Virus record (IMG/VR): IMGVR_UViG_3300029071_000005
Coordinates: 1 to 6,597 of that record
DNA: 6,597 bases
From: a virus
Taxonomy: Duplodnaviria > Heunggongvirae > Uroviricota > Caudoviricetes
Strand: one strand, 5' to 3'
The notes beneath the pieces were generated by a model. The model saw only the letters and a list, made by a program, of their open reading frames with translations, was not told where the DNA came from and ran no database searches. Positions within the stretch are counted from its first letter, which is position 1; every line of letters starts with the position of its first letter. Of the stretch, positions 1 through 6,597 are shown piece by piece. The translations under genes were made by a program, and so were the position numbers.

Positions 1-120
1 CGCCGCGCTCTGGAATTTTCGCCCCGCCGCGCTTATCAGGCTCTTACCAGCAAACGCCCCTTTGTTGGGGTGTCGCCAGTACGTGTTCACGCTGGGCGGA
101 AAAGGCAGGATCAGCTTCAT
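1..120 (-). CDS. rusA: RusA-like Holliday junction resolvase, N-terminal 40 codons only (gene runs off the window start)
   Basis: Minus-strand ATG at 120-118 overlaps the stop of the upstream gene (plus TCAT at 117-120 = ATGA on minus). Translation MKLILPFPPSVNTYWRHPNKGAFAGKSLISAAGRKFQSAA carries the LP-PPS-N-Y-RH N-terminal signature I recall for RusA-family resolvases. Partial, no stop within the window. Confidence 0.6.
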   Translation of the reverse strand, partial: MKLILPFPPSVNTYWRHPNKGAFAGKSLISAAGRKFQSAA

Positions 121-443
121 ACTTTCAGGTCCCTCTCATGTAACCAGTGGGTTGCACGCAGCCTTGCGTTTTCCTCACCGGCAAGCAGTGCGCGGATAAT
201 CCCGACTGCCTCGCTGTCGTCGTCCTTCACCGCGGTATGAAGCGTTATCCCCCGGGCCACACCACGCTTTATCGTGATGACGCCTTTTTTCTCCAGTGCG
301 CGAAGATGCTCCACCGCTGCATTCACTGAACGGTATCCCAGCATGGTTGCCACCTCCTGATTGGTTGGCGGGAAACCACGTTCTTTCTGATAAGAAATCA
401 GCATATCCAGCACCTGCTGCTGGCATTGAGTTAACGTCGTCAT
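117..443 (-). CDS. LexA-like DNA-binding domain protein lacking the S24 peptidase/dimerisation domain (108 aa)
   Basis: Track ORF 117..443. Residues 1-69 align without gaps to the E. coli LexA N-terminal winged-helix domain as I recall it (about half identical), with the recognition-helix segment SVNAAVEHLRALEKKG versus LexA SPNAAEEHLKALARKG. A hinge-like VGIIRALLAGEEN resembles LexA VGRVAAGEPLL, then the protein ends after about 25 more residues. ATGA overlaps at both ends (440-443 and 117-120). Confidence 0.75.
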   Translation of the reverse strand: MTTLTQCQQQVLDMLISYQKERGFPPTNQEVATMLGYRSVNAAVEHLRALEKKGVITIKRGVARGITLHTAVKDDDSEAVGIIRALLAGEENARLRATHWLHERDLKV

Positions 444-1093
444 GCCGCCATCTCCCTGACCAGTTTTTCCGCCTGCTGGCGAACCTGCGCCAGAAACGCC
501 TCACCACATGCCTCAAGTTCATCGCGCCCGATGTAGCTGATTGCCGGTCCCTTCCAGGTCTTATCGAAAACAGCAATAGCACCAGCGAAGAAAGCGCCTG
601 TCGGCACCTGCTTCTCATCCTTCGGGATAAACCAAGCAGGCAGTTCAAAACCAATACGCCCGCGAATAAAAGCAATATGATCCGCATCTTCCGGCCACCA
701 CACTTCGCTGGTGGCAGCTTTGATCAGGAAAACATAGCGCCCACCCTTATCACGCATGGCACTGGCATGTTTCATGATGTAACGCATGCCGGTGATGTAT
801 TGCCCCTCATGCTGACTGGCGCGGCTGTATGGGGGATTACCAAAGGCAGCCCCTTTAAGCTCCGCAAGACGTTCTGACCAGTCATGCGCCAGCGCGTTGT
901 CTTCCGCCGTGTAATACGCAGCACATTTGGCGTTATCACCGTCAGTGAACAGATCCAGAACAAACGGGCCAAACAGGGTGTTAATTCCCCAGAAAATGTT
1001 GTCCGGCGTGCGCCACTGATCACCCACTTCCTTCAGTTCATGGGCTGGTTTGTTCCGCAGTTCCACCAGCTCCTGGCAATATTTATTACTCAT
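440..1093 (-). CDS. Phage Dam-type DNA N6-adenine methyltransferase (orphan, no partner nuclease in window)
   Basis: Track ORF 440..1126. Contains the catalytic NPPY motif (GAAFGNPPYSRA) and the WRTPDNIFW...FVLDLFTDGDN N-terminal region typical of phage Dam-family methyltransferases. Start chosen at ATG 1093-1091 (MSNKY...) because it overlaps the upstream stop TAA 1095-1093 (TAATG); the alternative start at 1126 would give 228 aa. Confidence 0.85.
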   Translation of the reverse strand: MSNKYCQELVELRNKPAHELKEVGDQWRTPDNIFWGINTLFGPFVLDLFTDGDNAKCAAYYTAEDNALAHDWSERLAELKGAAFGNPPYSRASQHEGQYITGMRYIMKHASAMRDKGGRYVFLIKAATSEVWWPEDADHIAFIRGRIGFELPAWFIPKDEKQVPTGAFFAGAIAVFDKTWKGPAISYIGRDELEACGEAFLAQVRQQAEKLVREMAA

Positions 1094-1581
1094 TAAGCCC
1101 CCACGTAATTCCCTGACAGATACCACTCATCACCCGATACAGCGCGCTTGCTGCTTTTCCGTAAACACTGCTCACGACGCGCCAGAAAATTGTTTCGTTC
1201 TGGCTGGGAGTGGCTTTCACGGAATGCCGCCATCCACACCGTTGCAGCACGACGGTATAAGCCCCTGGACTCCAGTTCTTCCGCCTGGCGGGTCAGGCAC
1301 AAAATCACCCGGGGATCGTTAGTGCCGACATAGAAATTGCGCACAGGTCTGGTTTCACGAACTGGTTGTGGTTCCGGCTCCTGCGCTCTCTCAGTCAGGC
1401 GCGGGAAATGTCTGCGTGTATCCCCTTCACAACGGTGAGCCACACGCCCACTCTGACGTAACTTGCTTGCTGACTGCAGAACGCGCTGCCGTGAGTAACC
1501 TGCAAAAGCATCCGCAATGTCTCCGGAAGTACACCCCGGATGGGCTTCAATGAATTTCTGAACTTCATTCAAAAGACTCAT
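1093..1581 (-). CDS. Hypothetical regulator with PerC-like C-terminal motif and a possible N-terminal winged-helix region
   Basis: Track ORF 1093..1587. Motifs AEELESRGLYRRAATVWMAAF and RREQCLRK resemble the conserved core of PerC/Pch-family activators as I recall them. Start placed at ATG 1581-1579, 2 nt after the upstream TGA and 5-6 nt after an AGGGGG Shine-Dalgarno; GTG at 1587 is the alternative. Confidence 0.6.
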   Translation of the reverse strand: MSLLNEVQKFIEAHPGCTSGDIADAFAGYSRQRVLQSASKLRQSGRVAHRCEGDTRRHFPRLTERAQEPEPQPVRETRPVRNFYVGTNDPRVILCLTRQAEELESRGLYRRAATVWMAAFRESHSQPERNNFLARREQCLRKSSKRAVSGDEWYLSGNYVGA

Positions 1582-1583
1582 GA

Positions 1584-2402
1584 TCACCCCCTGAATCCTG
1601 CCGGGATCTGGCTGTAGTCCACGTTGTCGTAACTGGCTTTGAAGTACGGGTCCTCGCGTCTGGCTGCAGATACCGCAGGAACTTCCCAGGATTCTTCGAA
1701 ATGACGATCCGGACCAAAGAACGTGACAGCCTGTTTCACAAATTGTGTGCCGCTGTTACCCATCGCAGATACCCAGCCCGCGTAGCGTTTCACACCTTCC
1801 AGCATGGTTTCGGGTTTTACCCCCTCATTCAAACGGGCTTTCCAGGCTTTGAAGGCTGCAGATTTTGAATTGCCACCAGCACGTTTGGGGTATGCCAGCC
1901 ATGCCTGCTCAAACTCCGGAGAGTATTCCGGTCGGTTTGAACGAACTCGCACAGACTCATCAGCAGATGCACCAACAGCTATTGGTTCATTGACTGGTTC
2001 TTTGACTGGTTCAAAAGAGTGACTGGTTCTGGGTGAATCTCCTGCACCACCCCCTGGTGCAACTCCTGCACTACCTGGTGAATTTGCTGCACCAGATAGT
2101 GAATTATTTGCACTACCCCCTAGTGAATCTCCTGCACCATCAAGATGAAGGAGATAGATATTACTTGAGTTACCTTTTTCACCTTTCCGGGTGACTTTTT
2201 TTACCAGCCCGGAATCACAAAGGGCCGCAATATGATTCATCACAGAACGTTTGCTAATCTCGCACTGGTCAGCAATATGCTGGTAGCTGGGCCAGCACTC
2301 ACCCTGATCGCTGGCATTATCAGCCAGCTTGATCAGAACCAGTTTTCGCAATGGATTACCCACTCGAATTTTCATCGCTTTAACCATCAGCTCCATACTC
2401 AT
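1584..2402 (-). CDS. Phage replication initiator: N-terminal HTH domain, repetitive Gly/Ser/Ala/Pro linker, C-terminal replisome-organiser-like domain
   Basis: Track ORF 1584..2402. N-terminus KIRVGNPLRKLVLIKLADNASDQGECWPSYQHIADQCEISKRSVMNHIAALCDSGLV looks like the HTH module of phage replication initiators. C-terminal PEFEQAWLAYPKRAGGNSKSAAFKAWKARL matches the F-x-x-W-x-x-YPK...A...W motif I associate with phage replisome-organiser/DnaD-like domains. Start ATG 2402-2400 overlaps the upstream stop (ATGA). Confidence 0.8.
   Translation of the reverse strand: MSMELMVKAMKIRVGNPLRKLVLIKLADNASDQGECWPSYQHIADQCEISKRSVMNHIAALCDSGLVKKVTRKGEKGNSSNIYLLHLDGAGDSLGGSANNSLSGAANSPGSAGVAPGGGAGDSPRTSHSFEPVKEPVNEPIAVGASADESVRVRSNRPEYSPEFEQAWLAYPKRAGGNSKSAAFKAWKARLNEGVKPETMLEGVKRYAGWVSAMGNSGTQFVKQAVTFFGPDRHFEESWEVPAVSAARREDPYFKASYDNVDYSQIPAGFRG
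1991..2029. repeat. Three direct copies of TGACTGGTTC inside the replication-initiator gene
   Basis: TGACTGGTTC at 1991-2000, 2003-2012 and 2020-2029, with a degenerate TGGTTC at 1983-1988. Encodes a PVKEPVNEP stretch of the initiator. Confidence 0.6.
2032..2139. repeat. Five 18-bp iteron-like direct repeats (candidate origin of replication embedded in the initiator gene)
   Basis: GGTGAATCTCCTGCACCA 2032-2049, GGTGCAACTCCTGCACTA 2056-2073, GGTGAATTTGCTGCACCA 2077-2094, AGTGAATTATTTGCACTA 2099-2116, AGTGAATCTCCTGCACCA 2122-2139, spaced 21-24 bp apart. An AT-rich stretch follows at about 2140-2200. Same arrangement as lambda ori inside the O gene. Confidence 0.65.
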
Positions 2403-2623
2403 GCTGCACCTCCGAGATGCTTCATGTTTTTTCTGGAGCGAAAGGCTATAAGCGGCATACTGACGCGGTAATTACGGCCCAGCGGTTCACAAACCACCTT
2501 CTGACATTCACGGTCAACCAGGCTAACACGTAGAACATGCCCTGCAGGCGTGGTGTACCACTGACCCGGACGAGGACAACGGAAAGTCTGATTGGTAAAA
2601 CGTTTGAAAATATTCCGGATCAT
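2399..2623 (-). CDS. Hypothetical small protein (74 aa), possibly Cys-containing zinc-ribbon-like
   Basis: Track ORF 2399..2623. ATGA overlaps at both ends (2620-2623 and 2399-2402) link it to Rha and the replication gene. Contains the paired cysteines FRCPRPG...DRECQKVVCE. No family recognised. Confidence 0.5.
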   Translation of the reverse strand: MIRNIFKRFTNQTFRCPRPGQWYTTPAGHVLRVSLVDRECQKVVCEPLGRNYRVSMPLIAFRSRKNMKHLGGAA

Positions 2624-3165
2624 TTGCGCCCCCTTACCTCTGAAGGGTTCAGCGACAAATTTATGAGGCAGGCCAGCGCCGAAGCATCATTAATATAGTC
2701 ATATAAGCTAACAGCCAGCGGAGATTCGGCTTTTGCCAACATAGGATAAAGCTGCTGCAGCCAGACCTGATGAATTGATGAAATGTAGGAACAGAGAACG
2801 CTGGCGTTATGTGCAACGTCGCTCGGTACAGCGGGCCTTGAAAGCTGTTTCTCCATCTGGTTAAAGGCATTGATGTATGCCTCTTTGAACTGGGCAGCAC
2901 GTTTACCCGTGAAACCCATAGCAAGAAACGCAAAGCCGTCGCGGGTTATTTGATAGCAAGGTAGTTTGCGGCCTGTGCAATCGGTGTAATCACTCACCGA
3001 AAAATTGCGGGCAGTGAATGATGCGGAGCATTCAAGCGTGCGGATCTTTTTCAGTACATCGTCATGACGTTTGGAGAAGAAGTTGGCAACAGCCAGGGAT
3101 GAAGTAACAGCCTGACCATCAACGATGGCAATTTCAGGTTGAGTGAGGGTTGGGATCGTAGCCAT
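2620..3165 (-). CDS. Rha-family phage regulatory protein (181 aa as called)
   Basis: C-terminal 181 codons of track ORF 2620..3771. MATIPTLTQPEIAIVDGQAVTSSLAVANFFSKRHDDVLKKIRTLE...GRKLPCYQITRDGFAFLAMGFTGKRAAQFKEAYINAFNQME is a classic Rha N-terminal domain. Start chosen at ATG 3165-3163, preceded by AAAGAGG (GAGG 9 nt upstream). The frame stays open a further 202 codons upstream, so the true start is uncertain. Confidence 0.8.
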   Translation of the reverse strand: MATIPTLTQPEIAIVDGQAVTSSLAVANFFSKRHDDVLKKIRTLECSASFTARNFSVSDYTDCTGRKLPCYQITRDGFAFLAMGFTGKRAAQFKEAYINAFNQMEKQLSRPAVPSDVAHNASVLCSYISSIHQVWLQQLYPMLAKAESPLAVSLYDYINDASALACLINLSLNPSEVRGRK

Positions 3166-3333
3166 GATGGCAGCCTCTTTGGTGATTTTAAATAACTCAC
3201 CACCAAGGCTTTCCACGACCTTATTGGTGGTGAGACGTACAGGGGTGGAAATACCGGTCACCAAAGAACCCGGCCCAACCGAAGTTGGCCCTGCACGCCC
3301 CACCATAATTTGGGCGTAATGCTGCTCATGACA

Positions 3334-3357
3334 CAAAAAAACCGCAAGAGCGCGGTT
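3334..3357 (-). terminator. Candidate intrinsic terminator on the minus strand
   Basis: Minus-strand RNA AACCGC-GCUCUU-GCGGUU followed by UUUUUGUG (plus-strand A7 run at 3335-3341, arms 3340-3345 and 3352-3357). 6-bp stem, 6-nt loop, U-tract. Lies between the 59-aa ORF stop and the Rha start. Confidence 0.45.
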
Positions 3358-3442
3358 GTGCGCTTTGGTGAATTCCGGGTTTCCACGCCCGGCACCCGCT
3401 TTATAAGGTGCCTGAACAGTGTAACGTCCCGGAATGGCAGAA

Positions 3443-3622
3443 TCAATGTGCTGGTGGTCCTTCACACTCAACAAAATCACGCCTGAATTTCCACAAAGGA
3501 CTAAAGCACTCATGCGGGTAGTCTTTGCGAAGATAGATAACGCGCTGTGTTTCTGGCTCCCAACGAATAACATGAACATAAAGTCCTCTTCCGTCACGAA
3601 ACCAGCGGTTAAGTTCCTGCAC
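3443..3622 (-). CDS. Hypothetical 59-aa protein absent from the ORF track (GTG start, just under the 60-aa cutoff)
   Basis: Reading minus strand from GTG 3622-3620 to TGA 3445-3443 gives VQELNRWFRDGRGLYVHVIRWEPETQRVIYLRKDYPHECFSPLWKFRRDFVECEGPPAH, checked codon by codon. G-rich SD-like GGGGGG lies 6 nt upstream. It is out of frame with, and entirely inside, the N-terminal part of the 383-aa track ORF. No family recognised with confidence. Confidence 0.4.
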   Translation of the reverse strand: MQELNRWFRDGRGLYVHVIRWEPETQRVIYLRKDYPHECFSPLWKFRRDFVECEGPPAH

Positions 3623-3652
3623 AACTCGCCCCCCACAGTCAGGTAAAGTTCT

Positions 3653-3668
3653 CTGTGGTTACTTACAG
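3653..3668. promoter_or_regulatory. LexA (SOS) box core match CTGT-N8-ACAG
   Basis: CTGTGGTTACTTACAG at 3653-3668. It is the only exact CTGT-N8-ACAG I found in the window. Lies 31 bp upstream (minus strand) of the 59-aa ORF start, in the gap after the CII-like gene. The spacer is less AT-rich than strong chromosomal SOS boxes. Confidence 0.4.
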
Positions 3669-3767
3669 CCAGGTGATTTGGTAATCTGCATTCATGCCGT
3701 AACAACAGGTGTTCAGCCACGCGGACCACCAACTGTTGCGACCAACGGTTATTTGCCGTTAAACTGT

Positions 3768-4385
3768 TCATGCGTTAGTTTCTCCACAACCAGAAGCAAT
3801 CGACGCCACGACGCCCGGAGCTGCACACTCGCGGGCGTTACTCTTTTCCGGTGCACAAAAAACACGAAATAACAGTGTTAAATGCTCCTGCCACTTCGCC
3901 ATTACTTGGTAGCTGTTCTCTTCGATTTGCTCACGCTCAGCCTGGTCAATAACTCCATCAGCAGTTGCCTTGCGTAAGTACTGGGAATGCTTGCCAATCC
4001 ATTCTATTGACTCCATCAGCCGCTGATTAATGTCACCATTGCCAATGTCATCAATGACCACCAGCGGCACAAACACCCCATTACTACGACGGGCTATTGC
4101 ATCTGTTACATGCCTGGTACCACTGGCATCCTGTAAAACCATGGCCCACTCAAGTGGAAAAATTTGATCCCCACCGCTACGCAGTCTGTTATGCAATTGA
4201 TCTTTTGCTGGGGTGATATCATCAGATTTATACAAACCAAGAATTTCTGCTGCTTCCTCATAGCCATGAGGTAAATCAGCAATCGTTCTTCGTATTGCTG
4301 CCACCAGCCATGCTGGTTGTTTATCAACTTTCCATTCAGGTTCTTTACCCACGGCTATCTCCTTAAAACTGTGGTTACTTTCCAT
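3768..4385 (-). CDS. CII-like / YdaT-like early regulatory protein (205 aa)
   Basis: Track ORF 3768..4385. Second gene after cro-like, the position of cII. AAEILGLYKSDDITPAKDQLHNRLRSGGDQIFPLEWAMVL loosely parallels lambda CII AEAVGVDKSQISRWKRDWIPKFSMLLAVLEWGVV as I recall it. Start ATG 4385 overlaps the last 11 nt of the cro-like gene. Confidence 0.55.
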   Translation of the reverse strand: MESNHSFKEIAVGKEPEWKVDKQPAWLVAAIRRTIADLPHGYEEAAEILGLYKSDDITPAKDQLHNRLRSGGDQIFPLEWAMVLQDASGTRHVTDAIARRSNGVFVPLVVIDDIGNGDINQRLMESIEWIGKHSQYLRKATADGVIDQAEREQIEENSYQVMAKWQEHLTLLFRVFCAPEKSNARECAAPGVVASIASGCGETNA

Positions 4386-4623
4386 CTGATAAGTCTTTAA
4401 TCTTTTGAAAAATATCTGGACGTAATTTTTCTTTTGATACGCCAGTGGTCATTTCAATAAATATCGAGAGCTTTGCAGGGGGACGCTTTTCTCTGTTCAA
4501 CCAGTTCCAGACATGTTGTTGCTTTACTAAACGACCACTGCTGGCTGTGAGCTTCCGAGCCAATTCTGATTGACCACCAGCCAGAGCGATTGCCTCTGAT
4601 AAGGCTAATTGCTCAGGTGTCAT
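4375..4623 (-). CDS. Cro-like / YdaS-like HTH transcriptional regulator (82 aa)
   Basis: Track ORF 4375..4623. HTH segment GGQSELARKLTASSGRLVKQQHVWNWL. Transcribed divergently from the repressor; GGAG lies 6 nt upstream of the ATG; a TATAAT -10 lies upstream on the minus strand. Confidence 0.8.
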   Translation of the reverse strand: MTPEQLALSEAIALAGGQSELARKLTASSGRLVKQQHVWNWLNREKRPPAKLSIFIEMTTGVSKEKLRPDIFQKIKDLSDGK

Positions 4624-4647
4624 AGCTTTCTCCTATCTGTAAGTAGT

Positions 4648-4731
4648 AAAGTTGTTGATAACTTCGATTATACAACCACAACAACTTTTATCACAACTTT
4701 TAGATGTTGGAAAGCTAAAACATAAAGTTGT
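4648..4731. promoter_or_regulatory. OR-like operator region: four copies of the 8-9 bp motif AAAGTTGT/ACAACTTT, including an imperfect 16-bp palindrome
   Basis: AAAGTTGT at 4648-4655 and 4724-4731; ACAACTTTT at 4681-4689 and 4693-4701; palindrome AAGTTgttgatAACTT at 4649-4664. Sits between the divergent repressor and cro-like genes. Confidence 0.65.
4667..4696 (-). promoter_or_regulatory. Candidate pR-like sigma70 promoter for the cro-like operon
   Basis: On the minus strand: -35 TTGTGA (plus 4691-4696), 18-bp spacer, -10 TATAAT (plus 4667-4672), about 40 nt upstream of the cro-like ATG. Overlaps the operator repeats. Confidence 0.55.
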
Positions 4732-4760
4732 AACCTCAATAAAAACGAGGGGGATATGTT

Positions 4761-5447
4761 GTGAAAACATTGGCAGAAAGACTAAAAAGCGAAAGAGAAA
4801 AAGCAGGAATGAGTCAGGCGCAACTAGCTGAAAAAATTGGGCTTTCACAACAATCCGTAGCGAAAATCGAGAATGGAGAAACTCAACAGCCTCGGAAAAT
4901 TAAAGAGATTGCTAAAGTGTTAGGGGTTTCTCAAAAGTGGTTGCAATTGGGCATTGAGGATAACGCGTCTTTCCCAGACCTTGTTGTAAAGGAGGCTGAA
5001 AGTACAGCATTAGATCCTGACATTTTTGCAAACATTCCAGTCCTAGATGTCGAGTTATCAGCGGGTAATGGATGTTTGGCTGAAATAGTTGAATCAACTG
5101 TAGACTGGTTCCCGCTAAGAAGGATTGATTTAAGAAAAGCTGGTGTATGTGTCTCCAATGCAAAGATCGTAAAAATTTGGGGCAATAGTTTACTACCTGT
5201 ACTTAACAATGGAGATTTTGTTGCTGTTGATGTTTCCCAAACGGTTCCTATTCGTGATGGGGATCTTTATGCCATACGTGATGGCGTATTACTTAGAGTT
5301 AAAATATTGATCAATTTACCTGACGGTGGTCTGATTCTAAGAAGTTTCAATAAAGATGAGTATCCAGATGAAATACTCACCTTCGAAGATAGGCGTTCCA
5401 GAATTCACGTTATAGGTAGAGTATTCTGGTCATCGCGCACTTGGTAA
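4761..5447 (+). CDS. CI-like prophage repressor: N-terminal XRE-type HTH plus C-terminal S24 (LexA-like) autopeptidase domain
   Basis: Track ORF 4761..5447, GTG start 10 nt after GAGGGGG. HTH is MSQAQLAEKIGLSQQSVAKIENG. S24 signatures: candidate Ala-Gly cleavage site in LSAGNG, Ser motif WGNSLLPVLNNGDFVAVD (compare LexA GMSM...GDLLAV), Lys motif LLRVKIL (compare LexA VTVKRLK). Confidence 0.85.
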   Translation: MKTLAERLKSEREKAGMSQAQLAEKIGLSQQSVAKIENGETQQPRKIKEIAKVLGVSQKWLQLGIEDNASFPDLVVKEAESTALDPDIFANIPVLDVELSAGNGCLAEIVESTVDWFPLRRIDLRKAGVCVSNAKIVKIWGNSLLPVLNNGDFVAVDVSQTVPIRDGDLYAIRDGVLLRVKILINLPDGGLILRSFNKDEYPDEILTFEDRRSRIHVIGRVFWSSRTW

Positions 5448-5474
5448 TGCATCAAAAAACCTTCCTTCAGAAAT

Positions 5475-5579
5475 TTAGTTACCATTATTACCCGCCTTTT
5501 CAATCTTCCTCCCGTGATTTGAGAGTTTCCAATCACGGAAGGAAAGTGTCCCTTGTGTAATTAAAAGCGCATCGTCCAT
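5475..5579 (-). CDS. Candidate 34-aa small ORF antisense downstream of the repressor
   Basis: ATG 5579-5577 preceded by a perfect AGGAGG (plus CCTCCT 5585-5590) at 5-nt spacing. Translation MDDALLITQGTLSFRDWKLSNHGRKIEKAGNNGN, stop TAA 5477-5475. It is the C-terminal part of track ORF 5475..5663, whose upstream start would lie inside the operator-like block. Confidence 0.3.
   Translation of the reverse strand: MDDALLITQGTLSFRDWKLSNHGRKIEKAGNNGN
5504..5546 (+). other. Stable hairpin about 57 nt after the repressor stop (possible repressor 3' end structure; no U-tract)
   Basis: Inverted repeat TCTTCCTCCCGTGATT (5504-5519) and AATCACGGAAGGAAAG (5531-5546), about 13 bp with one mismatch and an 11-nt loop. 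Not followed by a T-run on the plus strand, so not a classic intrinsic terminator. Confidence 0.3.
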
Positions 5580-5640
5580 ACAACCTCCTTTTTTGATAAC
5601 CCTTGCCCTCATTTCACATCCGTCAAAACCACATAAAGTT

Positions 5641-5690
5641 GTTGACAACAACCAAAACAACAACTAGATTACAACTTAAAGATGTTGCAG
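5641..5690. promoter_or_regulatory. OL-like operator block homologous to the OR-like region
   Basis: CATAAAGTTGT at 5641-5651 is identical to 4721-4731. TAAAGTTGTTGAcAAC resembles 4647-4663 (TAAAGTTGTTGAtAAC). ACAACT-type half-sites recur at 5667-5672 and 5680-5685. About 55-60 bp of shared sequence with indels relative to 4645-4710. Confidence 0.6.
5651..5679 (+). promoter_or_regulatory. Candidate pL-like sigma70 promoter, plus strand
   Basis: -35 TTGACA (5651-5656, perfect), 17-bp spacer, -10 TAGATT (5674-5679), embedded in the operator-like repeats. Would transcribe towards boxA and the ORF at 5830. Confidence 0.55.
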
Positions 5691-5761
5691 TAACGAACAG
5701 GTAGGACGCCCACGAAGTAGCCGCCCGGGGCATATGAAGTCCAGGATGATTCGTTAGCAAC

Positions 5762-5784
5762 AAAAAAGCGCCCTACAGGACGCT
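5762..5784 (-). terminator. Candidate intrinsic terminator on the minus strand
   Basis: Minus-strand RNA AGCGUCC-UGUA-GGGCGCU (7-bp stem with one G-U pair, tetraloop) followed by UUUUUU (plus-strand A6 at 5762-5767). The same sequence folds less well on the plus strand (C-A mismatch). Confidence 0.45.
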
Positions 5785-5786
5785 TA

Positions 5787-5798
5787 GCTCTTTAACAA
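5787..5798 (+). promoter_or_regulatory. boxA-like antitermination element
   Basis: GCTCTTTAACAA at 5787-5798 matches the rrn/lambdoid boxA consensus (TGCTCTTTAACAA) at 12 of 13 positions. About 100 nt downstream of the candidate pL-like start and 32 nt upstream of the ATG at 5830. No clean boxB-type hairpin seen 3' of it. Confidence 0.5.
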
Positions 5799-5829
5799 TC
5801 TTGGTATCCCCGTAACAAAAGAGGGTTCT

Positions 5830-6123
5830 ATGGTCATATTCTGTGCTTACGTTCATCCTAATGGATTTTTTATCAGTACCAACCAACAAGACGAATTCTG
5901 GATTCTACTTAGTAAGCAGGTCGGATGGGGACGATTCTGTCTAATCCGACCAGAATCAGAATTTACAGAGAATGGAGGGCTTTTTGAATTACGTGAAATA
6001 CGTCCGGCAGATGGTCAAGCCCCTGACCAAGTAATCGAATCGTCAGCTGTTTTATGGCGTCGGCAGGAAGCGTTCGAAGCTGAGAGAGTAATTTCTTCTT
6101 ATCTTCAGTCGTGGCAGAAGTAG
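5830..6123 (+). CDS. Hypothetical protein (97 aa) in the position of a first pL-operon gene; function unknown
   Basis: Track ORF 5830..6123. Good RBS (AGAGGG, 4 nt before the ATG). Downstream of the plus-strand promoter and boxA. No arginine-rich N-terminus like lambda N. Its 3' 160 bp overlaps the convergent minus-strand ORF 5963..6466, so one of the two calls may be wrong. Confidence 0.35.
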   Translation: MVIFCAYVHPNGFFISTNQQDEFWILLSKQVGWGRFCLIRPESEFTENGGLFELREIRPADGQAPDQVIESSAVLWRRQEAFEAERVISSYLQSWQK

Positions 6124-6466
6124 AACTATTGATGATACGTTCAAGTTCACAGAGAGTCTCATCATGCAATCTTATTGTCATAATCCCAAGAATAGCTTTA
6201 AGACCTCCATCATCACGAATGAAATCAATTCCATCTTTAGTAATTCTTAATTCAGGAATATTTATATTTATGCCATCCAAGTAATAATCAAGAGCATTCT
6301 TAATCAAGCCATGTTCTTCGAGATAAATTAAGTTCGAAATTAGGACATTATCATCTCCAAATGCGTCACGAACAGACTGCAACGCATCATCAGAAATTTC
6401 ATAAGGATGAGCATCATACAGTATTTGTAACAACTGCCTTTGTGCACTTCTATCAAATTTGTCCAT
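5963..6466 (-). CDS. Hypothetical protein (167 aa) encoded mostly in a visibly AT-rich segment
   Basis: Track ORF 5963..6466. 114 stop-free codons in AT-rich DNA (about 6124-6466) are unlikely by chance. Sequence is protein-like, with a possible winged-helix segment (LISNLIYLEEHGLIK). GGTGA lies 9 nt upstream of the ATG. No family recognised. Confidence 0.6.
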   Translation of the reverse strand: MDKFDRSAQRQLLQILYDAHPYEISDDALQSVRDAFGDDNVLISNLIYLEEHGLIKNALDYYLDGININIPELRITKDGIDFIRDDGGLKAILGIMTIRLHDETLCELERIINSSTSATTEDKKKLLSQLRTLPADAIKQLTIRLLGQGLDHLPDVFHVIQKALHSL

Positions 6467-6597
6467 CTTAAATAATCACCATGTTATTGGGGGTATCAAG
6501 ATTAACCGAATCCTTGTTGTTGGGGAATAACCAGGTCCACCTCGCCTGATGTGGCTAAAAGCAGGCACATAACAGCTAAGTATTTTCAACCAGAGAG

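What the first reader, a model, noticed from the sequence alone, without database searches (positions are those of the whole stretch)
1093..1581. PerC-like motif fused to an extra N-terminal domain
The C-terminal half carries the AEELE-RGLYRRAA-W and RRE-CLRK signature I associate with PerC/Pch virulence-gene activators, but the protein is roughly twice the usual length and has a winged-helix-like N-terminal region (NEVQKFIEAHPGCTSGDIADAF...). PerC homologues on prophages can cross-activate host virulence regulons, so the architecture is worth a look if the host is a pathogenic E. coli. The match is recalled by eye, not scored.
Basis: partly seen in the sequence, partly recalled or inferred. 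Interest (0 to 1): 0.35.

Follow-up and report, generated by a model that had tools for sequence, protein, structure and literature searches.

The report
Prophage YfdN: winged-helix plus PerC

Summary
The observation and the interpretation both hold. Window 1093-1581 (minus strand) is an intact 162-aa ORF. Residues 98-151 match Pfam PerC (PF06069) at E=1e-9, 39 bits against a cutoff of 22.6, and align to EPEC PerC at 32% identity. Residues 1-60 are predicted with high confidence as a winged helix-turn-helix, and a family profile of this domain hits MarR (E=6e-6) and BlaI (E=8e-5).

The gene is not new. It is yfdN of E. coli K-12 prophage CPS-53, which RefSeq annotates as 'PerC family transcriptional regulator'. 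It matches at 95% identity or more in about 2600 of 5426 complete E. coli genomes and occurs in phages mEp460, SfV, SfII, SfIV, ST64B and Stx2c phages. PHROG 1324 covers its full length.

The two-domain build is conserved down to 24% identity across Enterobacterales. The gene nearly always sits translationally coupled just after the phage replication-initiator gene. The C-terminal module also overlaps the ANR (Aar) anti-activator family, which works by protein-protein contact.

The likeliest function is a DNA-tethered PerC/ANR-type modulator made with the phage early genes. Whether it activates ler is untested. Interest is low.

The parts
1093..1581 (-). yfdN coding sequence, 162 aa plus stop (alternative GTG start at 1587 gives the 164-aa RefSeq form)
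   Evidence: ORF list and sequence. 100% identical copies are annotated 'PerC family transcriptional regulator', and 99.6-99.8% copies carry the gene name yfdN. The K-12 yfdN deletion primers of PMC5931665 match the flanks at 48/50 and 47/50 bases. PHROG 1324 matches the full length at E=5e-78.
1399..1581 (-). N-terminal winged helix-turn-helix domain (residues 1-61): helices 3-13, 19-25 and 31-44, then beta-hairpin wing 47-52/55-60
   Evidence: AlphaFold2 pLDDT 85-92. Foldseek finds ArsR/SmtB, MarR, BlaI/MecI and Fur, rmsd 1.7-2.6 A over 56-68 columns. Domain profile A4 hits MarR 2fa5 at E=6e-6 and BlaI 1p6r at E=8e-5. Helix 3 plus wing has 8 K/R against 2 D/E, pI 11.6.
1318..1398 (-). Pro/Glu-rich flexible linker (residues 62-88), variable in length and sequence across the family
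   Evidence: pLDDT below 50 for residues 63-84. This is the gapped, unconserved region of alignment A2.
1132..1317 (-). PerC/ANR-type three-helix module (residues 89-150; helices 90-105, 109-122, 126-149). The Pfam PerC match covers residues 98-151, nt 1129-1290
   Evidence: Pfam PF06069 E=1e-9. 32% identity to EPEC PerC. hhalign probability 97.6%. NCBIfam ANR_neg_reg at 22.5-24.4 bits, below its cutoff of 32. The module superposes on a 60-aa phage ANR protein model at 0.6 A rmsd over 56 columns. L103, R111 and A112 are invariant and A100, A113, R136 and C139 nearly so in 35 diverse members.
1096..1131 (-). Conserved C-terminal tail DEWYLSGNYVGA (residues 151-162), predicted disordered
   Evidence: L155, G157, Y159 and G161 are conserved in 21-32 of 35 family members. 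pLDDT is below 50. The tail has no counterpart in EPEC PerC.
1584..2402 (-). Upstream replication-initiator gene (HTH_36 plus a DnaD-like C-terminal part). Its stop TGA at 1586-1584 lies 2 nt before the yfdN ATG
   Evidence: Pfam and PHROG hits. In 88 of 91 related loci the ORF that ends 2 nt before, or overlaps by 4 nt, the yfdN start is a Rep-like protein.
1587..1625 (-). Conserved C-terminal tail of the Rep protein, NVDYSQIPAGFRG. Its last codons, AGG GGG, also serve as the yfdN Shine-Dalgarno sequence
   Evidence: The tail is shared by Rep classes that otherwise differ. 97 of 106 IMG/VR Rep ORFs with this tail are followed by a YfdN-like ORF.
440..1093 (-). Downstream phage Dam methyltransferase. 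Its ATG (1093-1091) overlaps the yfdN stop as TAATG
   Evidence: Pfam Dam E=1e-45 and NCBIfam phage_N6A_met E=2e-76.
117..443 (-). Next gene in the same operon: a LexA DNA-binding-domain-only protein (108 aa)
   Evidence: Pfam LexA_DNA_bind E=3e-19, with no S24 peptidase domain. It is a conserved neighbour in distant loci.

Best explanation
The ORF is yfdN, a gene of the early-right operon of lambdoid prophages. The gene order is cro-like, cII-like, Rha/Ash, small ORF, replication initiator, yfdN, Dam, LexA-DBD.

Shown here: the protein has two folded parts joined by a disordered linker. The first is an N-terminal winged helix-turn-helix with a very basic recognition helix and wing. The second is a C-terminal three-helix module homologous to PerC/Pch that also overlaps the ANR (Aar) family. 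This two-part build is a conserved family, not a one-off fusion. The gene is translationally coupled to the replication gene upstream and to Dam downstream, so it is made with the early lytic genes after induction.

Inferred: the winged helix anchors the protein to specific DNA. The PerC/ANR module then does what its stand-alone relatives do, which is to contact nucleoid or regulatory proteins. Pch displaces H-NS/StpA/Hha complexes. Aar binds H-NS and AraC-type activators directly. YfdN would then be a DNA-tethered modulator of H-NS-type silencing or of a transcription factor, acting on phage or host promoters. The sign of regulation and the targets, including ler, are unknown.

The identity and architecture are near certain. 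The confidence given applies to the inferred mechanism.
For: Identity.

PerC homology.

Winged helix.

Conserved two-domain family: 35 representatives at 24-71% identity all hit Pfam PerC and share the N-terminal domain.

Overlap with ANR: 30 of 42 C-terminal domains hit NCBIfam ANR_neg_reg at E<=0.01, best 6e-12. The module superposes on a phage ANR model at 0.6 A rmsd. The nearly invariant C139 parallels the 'very highly conserved cysteine' of ANR proteins (PMC4038620).

Protein-contact fold: the C-terminal domain alone finds only TPR-like and MIT three-helix protein-binding folds, weakly, and no DNA-binding fold.

[quoted passage not shown] Aar has no DNA-binding ability and binds AggR and H-NS (PMC4983702 and PMC5570504).

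Operon context: stop/start junctions, and no promoter-like site or minus-strand terminator between the genes.
Against: No experiment on YfdN exists in the papers searched. It was only deleted as a precaution and was still listed as uncharacterised in 2025.

Foldseek E-values for both domains are above 0.01, so the fold assignments rest on probabilities, rmsd and the separate profile hits.

DNA binding by the winged helix is inferred, and some winged helices bind proteins. RPA32 C-terminal domains appear among the hits.

The authors of PMC4764244 could not co-precipitate H-NS with PchA, so a direct H-NS contact is not established for the PerC branch.

The tight linkage to the replication gene is not explained by a purely transcriptional role.
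Confidence: 0.55

Rival explanations
1. YfdN is an ANR-type negative regulator (anti-activator). Like Aar or EcCIMP1_025, it would dampen virulence or host regulons rather than activate them.
For: Most C-terminal domains of the family hit the ANR model (30 of 42, best E=6e-12). The module superposes almost exactly on a phage ANR protein model. A PerC-annotated protein from a phage-inducible chromosomal island silences LEE1 in C. rodentium, and its authors suspect it is an ANR (PMC11773190). PchE represses curli and flagella (PMC6265319 and PMC7369912).
Against: The window protein itself scores below the ANR cutoff (22.5-24.4 bits against 32) but above the PerC cutoff. ANRs are under 10 kDa, lack a DNA-binding domain and accompany an AraC-family gene. 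No AraC-family gene is in this window.
Confidence: 0.2
2. YfdN is an accessory of the phage replication module, sitting where lambda P sits. Its TPR-like module might dock onto the conserved C-terminal tail of the Rep initiator, or recruit a host replication factor to the origin.
For: In 88 of 91 loci YfdN or a YfdN-like gene starts 2 nt after, or overlaps, the stop of a Rep-like gene. This holds when YfdN is only 25-28% identical and when the Rep class changes. Rep proteins share the tail ...DYSQIPAGFRG, and 97 of 106 Reps with that tail are followed by YfdN. No helicase or helicase-loader domain is recognisable in the window. TPR and MIT folds typically bind peptide tails (general knowledge), and these are the fold hits.
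Against: There is no homology to any replication protein, and every detectable relative is a regulator. Nearly identical yfdN alleles sit behind Rep alleles that are only about 30% identical, so there is no co-variation apart from the tail. Some elements have the Rep tail but no YfdN (L166, L132, L208). One Stx2a prophage carries yfdN split by IS629. The 106 loci are mostly near-identical, so the counts are not independent. Synteny in lambdoid mosaics can be purely historical.
Confidence: 0.1
3. YfdN is a functional PerC/PchABC equivalent that activates ler/LEE1 when its prophage is induced in an attaching-effacing E. coli.
For: True homology to PerC over helices 1-3. yfdN is present in O157:H7 genomes and in Stx2c/Stx2a phages. 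Uhlich et al. thought it prudent to delete K-12 yfdN before measuring ler-lacZ (PMC5931665).
Against: YfdN lacks PerC model positions 59-90 and has an unrelated tail. PchD and PchE, also PerC homologues, have minimal or no effect on ler. PerC-like genes of the chromosomal islands EcCIEDL933 and EcCICFT073 had no effect, and EcCIMP1_025 represses. yfdN is common in non-pathogenic E. coli, including K-12.
Confidence: 0.1
4. The long ORF is an artefact: two neighbouring genes fused by a frameshift or a lost stop codon.
For: PHROGs also holds separate families for the N half (phrog_23071) and the C half (phrog_2608). Many truncated fragments exist in databases.
Against: About 30 representatives of 138-165 aa at 24-47% identity keep both domains in one frame, with a variable linker. 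PHROG 1324 covers the full length. Thousands of intact 162-164 aa copies exist.
Confidence: 0.01

Closest known systems
YfdN of E. coli K-12 prophage CPS-53/KpLE1 (b2357, UniProt P76510); equivalent to SfV orf40, ST64B Sb43 and the mEp460 homologue; PHROG 1324
   Same: It is the same gene. Identity is 95-100% in E. coli and Shigella phages and 67% in ST64B. Length, two-domain build and position (Rep, YfdN, Dam) are the same. The ST64B record itself notes similarity to b2357/P76510.
   Different: Nothing of substance. This window's allele is identical to those in strains ExPEC XM, PU-1 and G12. The immunity region next to it (4400-6597) differs from the best-matching phages.
PerC of EPEC (pEAF/pMAR2 per operon, 89 aa)
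   Same: Homologous over PerC residues 6-61, at 32% identity, including the LE-KG-YRRAA-W and RR--C motifs. Both match Pfam PF06069.
   Different: PerC stands alone, is plasmid-borne in the perABC operon, and has a different C-terminal third. YfdN adds a winged helix and linker at the N-terminus and its own WYLSGNYVG tail. ler activation is shown for PerC and untested for YfdN.
PchA/B/C of EHEC O157:H7 (about 104 aa; prophage-encoded LEE1 activators) and the weaker PchD and PchE
   Same: Same Pfam family and prophage or island location. Pch acts by relieving H-NS/StpA/Hha silencing (PMC4764244), which is the model borrowed here.
   Different: Pch proteins lack any recognisable DNA-binding domain. 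PchD (ECs1388, OI-43/48) and PchE (ECs1588, OI-51) are distinct genes from yfdN.
ANR family (Aar of EAEC, Rnr, Cnr; NCBIfam NF033650)
   Same: Same three-helix module with a conserved Cys in helix 3. 30 of 42 family C-terminal domains hit the ANR model. The module superposes at 0.6 A rmsd on a phage ANR model. ANRs work by protein-protein binding to AggR-type activators and H-NS.
   Different: ANRs are under 10 kDa single-module proteins found next to AraC-family regulators. The window protein scores below the ANR cutoff, and no AraC-family gene is nearby.
MarR / BlaI-MecI / ArsR-SmtB winged-helix DNA-binding domains
   Same: Same fold and topology for residues 1-60, with a significant profile match.
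   Different: YfdN lacks the dimerisation helices of MarR, the C-terminal dimerisation domain of BlaI and the metal sites of ArsR. It carries only the bare winged-helix core.

Membership tests
PerC family (Pfam PF06069) | Profile match above the curated gathering score | tested here: met
   39 bits against 22.6, E=1e-9, residues 98-151. All 35 diverse family members also match.
PerC family (Pfam PF06069) | Direct homology to the founding protein, EPEC PerC | tested here: met
   BLASTP 32% identity over 56 aa, E=2e-7. hhalign probability 97.6%, E=3e-12.
PerC family (Pfam PF06069) | Full-length coverage of the 90-position model (small stand-alone protein of about 90-105 aa) | tested here: not met
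   Only model positions 5-58 are matched. The protein is 162 aa with an extra N-terminal domain and a different tail.
PerC family (Pfam PF06069) | Activation of the ler/LEE1 promoter | not testable with these tools
   No experiment on YfdN was found. It was deleted from the reporter host but not assayed (PMC5931665).
YfdN family (PHROG 1324; RefSeq yfdN) | Full-length match and near-identity to annotated yfdN genes | tested here: met
   phrog_1324 E=5e-78 over residues 1-161. 99.6-99.8% identity to copies named yfdN, and 100% to copies named 'PerC family transcriptional regulator'. The K-12 yfdN primers flank the ORF.
YfdN family (PHROG 1324; RefSeq yfdN) | Position between the replication-initiator gene and Dam or the LexA-DBD gene in a lambdoid early operon | tested here: met
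   Window gene order. Same order in O157 prophage L001, in ST64B and in distant loci.
ANR family (NCBIfam NF033650) | Score at or above the curated cutoff (32 bits) | tested here: not met
   22.5 bits for the whole protein and 24.4 bits for the C-terminal domain alone. Other members of the YfdN family do pass E<=0.01, best 6e-12.
ANR family (NCBIfam NF033650) | Three-helix fold with a conserved cysteine in helix 3 | tested here: met
   Helices 90-105, 109-122 and 126-149 at pLDDT about 90. C139 is present in 34 of 35 members. rmsd is 0.6 A to a phage ANR model.
ANR family (NCBIfam NF033650) | Protein under 10 kDa, no DNA-binding domain, encoded alongside an AraC/XylS regulator | tested here: not met
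   The protein is 162 aa with a winged helix. No AraC-family hit among the window ORFs.
Winged helix-turn-helix DNA-binding domains (MarR/BlaI/ArsR type) | H1-H2-H3 plus beta-hairpin wing topology that superposes on solved members | tested here: met
   AlphaFold2 topology at pLDDT 85-92. rmsd 1.7-2.6 A over 56-68 columns, Foldseek probability about 1.0 but E=0.08-0.3.
Winged helix-turn-helix DNA-binding domains (MarR/BlaI/ArsR type) | Sequence-profile similarity to known members | tested here: met
   Profile A4 hits MarR 2fa5 at E=6e-6 and BlaI 1p6r at E=8e-5. Pfam Penicillinase_R, MarR_2 and HTH_24 hits occur in several family members. phrog_1687 MarR E=8e-5.
Winged helix-turn-helix DNA-binding domains (MarR/BlaI/ArsR type) | Actual DNA binding | not testable with these tools
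   Only indirect evidence: helix 3 plus wing has 8 K/R against 2 D/E.

The most novel reading that the evidence does not exclude
YfdN-type proteins are a dedicated partner of the phage replication initiator rather than a virulence regulator. The winged helix would place them at or near the origin. The TPR/MIT-like PerC module would capture the conserved C-terminal tail of Rep (...DYSQIPAGFRG), or clear H-NS from the AT-rich origin. The stand-alone PerC, Pch and ANR regulators would then be descendants of a phage replication-module adaptor that lost its DNA tether.
Probability: 0.07. Interest if true: 0.55.

Novelty: already known. Interest (0 to 1): 0.15.

Why it matters
As a discovery it matters little. 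The gene is named, annotated as PerC-family, and present in thousands of genomes.

Its residual value is as a pointer. YfdN matches at 95% identity or more in about half of complete E. coli genomes, including O157:H7 and Stx-converting phages, yet it has never been assayed. It pairs the poorly understood PerC/ANR module with an obvious DNA-binding domain, which could make it a convenient handle for working out how that module acts.

If it did modulate ler or H-NS silencing on prophage induction, it would add one more link between phage induction and virulence regulation.

Tried and rejected
(1) Profile searches of PDB sequences found nothing related to the whole protein or the C-terminal module. 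No solved PerC or ANR structure is detectable by sequence.

(2) Foldseek on the C-terminal domain alone gave only weak TPR-like and MIT hits, E>=0.6. I use these as a hint, not a classification.

(3) Porter et al. 2005 (PMC543544), the key paper on PerC-like proteins, is not held. What is said about it here comes second-hand.

(4) I checked whether YfdN is one of the assayed Pch proteins. It is not: PchD is ECs1388 and PchE is ECs1588, on OI-43/48 and OI-51. A literature search for 'pchX' gave nothing relevant.

(5) The search for related loci with the full 35-sequence alignment failed because the alignment had no stretch conserved enough to search with. A narrower alignment worked.

(6) Locus L013 (Pararhodobacter) was a false positive, with no PerC hit and an unrelated context. 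The family as sampled is confined to Enterobacterales.

(7) The IMG/VR scans returned mostly near-identical copies. Their counts show linkage but are not independent observations.

(8) A filamentation screen in UTI89 flagged a 2.5-kb region containing 'yfdN2' but did not resolve the causal gene. An overexpression screen listed yfdN among the genes that alter glycogen content. Neither result defines a function.

(9) The fusion-artefact reading was rejected (see rival explanations).
Full report
WHAT IS THERE

The finding's coordinates hold an intact minus-strand ORF. It runs from ATG at 1581-1579 to TAA at 1095-1093 and encodes 162 aa. An in-frame GTG two codons upstream (1587) is the start used by RefSeq's annotation pipeline, giving 164 aa. 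All distant homologues begin MSL..., which favours the ATG.

- NEVQKFIEAHPGCTSGDIADAF is residues 5-26.
- AEELESRGLYRRAATVW is residues 100-116.
- RREQCLRK is residues 135-142.

THE PerC CALL IS RIGHT

- Pfam PerC (PF06069) matches residues 98-151 at E=1e-9, 39 bits against a gathering score of 22.6.
- I fetched the founding protein, PerC of EPEC E2348/69 plasmid pMAR2 (89 aa). YfdN residues 98-153 align to PerC residues 6-61 at 32% identity, E=2e-7.
- A 42-sequence profile of the C-terminal module matches PerC with hhalign probability 97.6%, E=3e-12.
- Only model positions 5-58 of 90 are covered. The last third of PerC has no counterpart, and YfdN ends in its own conserved tail, WYLSGNYVG.

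THE WINGED-HELIX CALL IS RIGHT

- AlphaFold2, run on a 16-sequence alignment, gives helices 3-13, 19-25 and 31-44 followed by a beta-hairpin (47-52, 55-60) at pLDDT 85-92.
- Next comes a disordered Pro/Glu-rich linker (63-84), then three helices (90-105, 109-122, 126-149) at pLDDT about 90, then a disordered tail.
- Foldseek against the PDB superposes the N-domain on ArsR/SmtB, MarR, BlaI/MecI and Fur/PerR winged helices. The rmsd is 1.7-2.6 A over 56-68 columns and the probability is about 1.0, although E-values are only 0.08-0.3.
- Independently, a 35-sequence profile of the N-domain hits a MarR regulator (2fa5, E=6e-6) and the BlaI DNA-binding domain (1p6r, E=8e-5) among PDB sequences.
- Several family members hit Pfam Penicillinase_R, MarR_2 or HTH_24.
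- The recognition helix plus wing carries 8 Lys/Arg against 2 Asp/Glu.

IT IS A KNOWN GENE

- The 489-bp stretch matches in 2668 of 5426 complete E. coli genomes, and 2607 records match at 95% identity or more.
- RefSeq annotates it 'PerC family transcriptional regulator', often with the gene name yfdN.
- yfdN is a gene of the K-12 cryptic prophage CPS-53/KpLE1. The primers that Uhlich et al. used to delete K-12 yfdN match the two flanks of this ORF at 48/50 and 47/50 bases.
- The same protein is encoded by phages mEp460, SfV (orf40), SfII, SfIV, several Stx2c and Stx2a phages and, at 67% identity, Salmonella phage ST64B (Sb43, whose record already notes similarity to b2357/P76510).
- PHROG 1324 ('transcriptional activator') covers the whole length at E=5e-78.
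- The protein database holds thousands of 162-164-aa copies named PerC family.

In the literature searched, yfdN is called 'the K12 unique PerC homologue'. It was removed from a ler-lacZ reporter host as a precaution but was not itself assayed (PMC5931665). It is distinct from pchD (ECs1388) and pchE (ECs1588), and it was still listed as an uncharacterised protein in 2025.

THE TWO-DOMAIN BUILD IS A FAMILY TRAIT

An exhaustive HMMER search of 1.84 billion cluster representatives found 104 hits:
- About 30 are 138-165-aa proteins at 24-47% identity that align end to end with both domains.
- The rest include fragments and short (62-92 aa) PerC-only proteins.

In a 35-sequence alignment of the two-domain proteins:
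- The linker varies in length and sequence, while both domains are conserved.
- L103, R111 and A112 are invariant.
- A100, A113, R136, C139 and G161 are nearly invariant.
- All 35 match Pfam PerC.

This rules out a fusion artefact. One variant (P0184) has two tandem winged helices. Genome loci found with the family profile come from Escherichia, Shigella, Citrobacter, Leclercia, Enterobacter and Kosakonia. A Pararhodobacter candidate was a false positive.

CONTEXT

The window is the immunity and early-right region of a lambdoid prophage:
- 4761-5447 (+): cI-like repressor.
- 4375-4623 (-): Cro/YdaS-like protein.
- 3768-4385 (-): YmfL/CII-like protein.
- 2620-3771 (-): Ash+Rha protein.
- 2399-2623 (-): small ORF (phrog_1153).
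- 1584-2402 (-): replication initiator (HTH_36 plus a DnaD-like C-terminal part).
- 1093-1581 (-): yfdN.
- 440-1093 (-): Dam.
- 117-443 (-): LexA DNA-binding-domain-only protein.

The junctions are tight. The Rep stop TGA lies 2 nt before the yfdN ATG. The yfdN TAA overlaps the Dam ATG as TAATG. The Dam stop overlaps the next ATG. No promoter-like site and no minus-strand terminator-like site lies in 400-2700. yfdN is therefore part of the early lytic transcript.

The linkage to the replication gene is striking:
- In 88 of 91 related loci, the ORF ending 2 nt before the yfdN start (81 loci) or overlapping it by 4 nt (8 loci) is Rep-like.
- This holds for YfdN homologues of only 25-28% identity.
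- It also holds when the Rep protein belongs to a different allelic class, for example 272, 313 and 330 aa at about 30% identity or less.
- These Rep proteins share a C-terminal tail...NVDYSQIPAGFRG, which persists in degenerate form in the distant loci.
- Of 106 IMG/VR Rep ORFs ending in this tail, 97 are followed at once by a YfdN-like ORF.
- Exceptions exist: Rep followed directly by a methyltransferase in L166, L132 and L208.
- The samples are dominated by near-identical prophages, so the counts are not independent.

Downstream neighbours vary among Dam, a D12/C5 methyltransferase fusion and the LexA-DBD gene.

HOW IT PROBABLY WORKS

The C-terminal module is the same module as in the ANR family:
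- 30 of 42 family C-terminal domains hit NCBIfam ANR_neg_reg at E<=0.01, best 6e-12. The window protein itself stays below the cutoff at 22.5-24.4 bits against 32.
- The model superposes on a 60-aa 'ANR family transcriptional regulator' of an Aeromonas phage at 0.6 A rmsd over 56 columns.
- ANR proteins are three-helix proteins with a highly conserved cysteine (PMC4038620). That matches C139 here.
- Alone, the module finds only TPR-like and MIT three-helix protein-binding folds, weakly, and no DNA-binding fold.
- Its G-x-Y-x-x-A-x-x-x-W-x-x-A pattern fits the second helix of a TPR motif. This is my own reading of the sequence, not a scored result.

The stand-alone relatives act on proteins of the nucleoid or on activators:
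- Aar has no DNA-binding ability and binds AggR and H-NS directly (PMC4983702 and PMC5570504).

The simplest reading is that YfdN tethers such a module to DNA through its winged helix and modulates H-NS-type silencing or a transcription factor at particular sites when the prophage is induced. This mechanism is inferred, not shown.

The direction of regulation cannot be predicted. PchABC activate ler. PchD and PchE hardly do. PchE represses curli and flagella. A PerC-like protein from a phage-inducible chromosomal island silences LEE1.

RIVALS

(a) An ANR-like negative regulator.

(b) An accessory of the replication module in the position of lambda P, perhaps docking on the Rep tail. This is suggested only by synteny and by the absence of any recognisable helicase loader in the window. 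It is weakened by the lack of co-variation with Rep alleles, by elements that have the tail but no YfdN, and by an Stx2a prophage with yfdN split by IS629.

This is possible but untested, and it is disfavoured by the missing C-terminal third of PerC.

(d) A fusion artefact. This is refuted.

VERDICT

Observation confirmed and interpretation supported. The feature is an already-known, widely annotated prophage gene of untested function, and it is ordinary in this genomic context. Interest is low.

Two modest additions come out of this check. The PerC and ANR models describe one and the same three-helix module. The YfdN family pairs that module with a winged helix and is almost invariably coupled to the phage replication-initiator gene.

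Noticed in passing
window 1587-1625 (-), and loci L003, L005-L011, L096 onward: The replication-initiator proteins upstream of yfdN end in a conserved tail, ...NVDYSQIPAGFRG-COOH. The tail is shared by Rep classes that are otherwise only about 30% identical or unalignable, and it is degenerate (IPxGFRG / ENAGFRS) in distant genera. Its last codons, AGG GGG, double as the yfdN ribosome-binding site. Its function is unknown; it may be a docking peptide.
   Followed up: partly
window 117-443 (-): A 108-aa protein consists only of the LexA DNA-binding domain (Pfam LexA_DNA_bind E=3e-19), with no S24 self-cleavage domain. It is a conserved member of the same operon in distant loci. It could act as an uncleavable LexA mimic.
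   Followed up: no
window 440-2402 (-): A chain of translationally coupled genes: Rep stop 2 nt before the yfdN ATG, yfdN TAA overlapping the Dam ATG (TAATG at 1091-1095), and Dam stop overlapping the next ATG at 440-443. No promoter-like or minus-strand terminator-like sites lie between them. The SfV record nevertheless annotates -35/-10 signals for dam inside the homologous gene.
   Followed up: partly
window 2620-3771 (-): A long ORF (383 aa as listed) combines an Ash domain (residues 117-213) with a Rha domain (223-308). PHROG 821 covers only residues 61-383, so the true start is probably internal.
   Followed up: no
window 4400-6597: G+C drops from about 0.53-0.57 in the replication/yfdN/Dam part to about 0.39-0.42 in the immunity region. 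The best-matching phages cover only positions 1-4375, so this window joins a common early-gene block to a rarer immunity module. A 167-aa ORF of unknown function (5963-6466, -; phrog_3983) lies beyond the cI-like repressor, where lambdoid phages often carry exclusion or defence genes.
   Followed up: no
protein P0184; locus L009 5429-7252: Two variants on the theme. P0184, a 214-aa family member, has two tandem winged helices before the PerC module. In Kosakonia, a 607-aa C5-plus-D12 DNA methyltransferase fusion occupies the Dam position after the YfdN-like gene.
   Followed up: no
phage record AP012537.1 / NC_049941.1 (Stx2a_WGPS2): In this Stx2a-converting prophage of O157:H7, the yfdN homologue is interrupted by IS629. 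This suggests the gene is dispensable, at least for maintaining the prophage.
   Followed up: no
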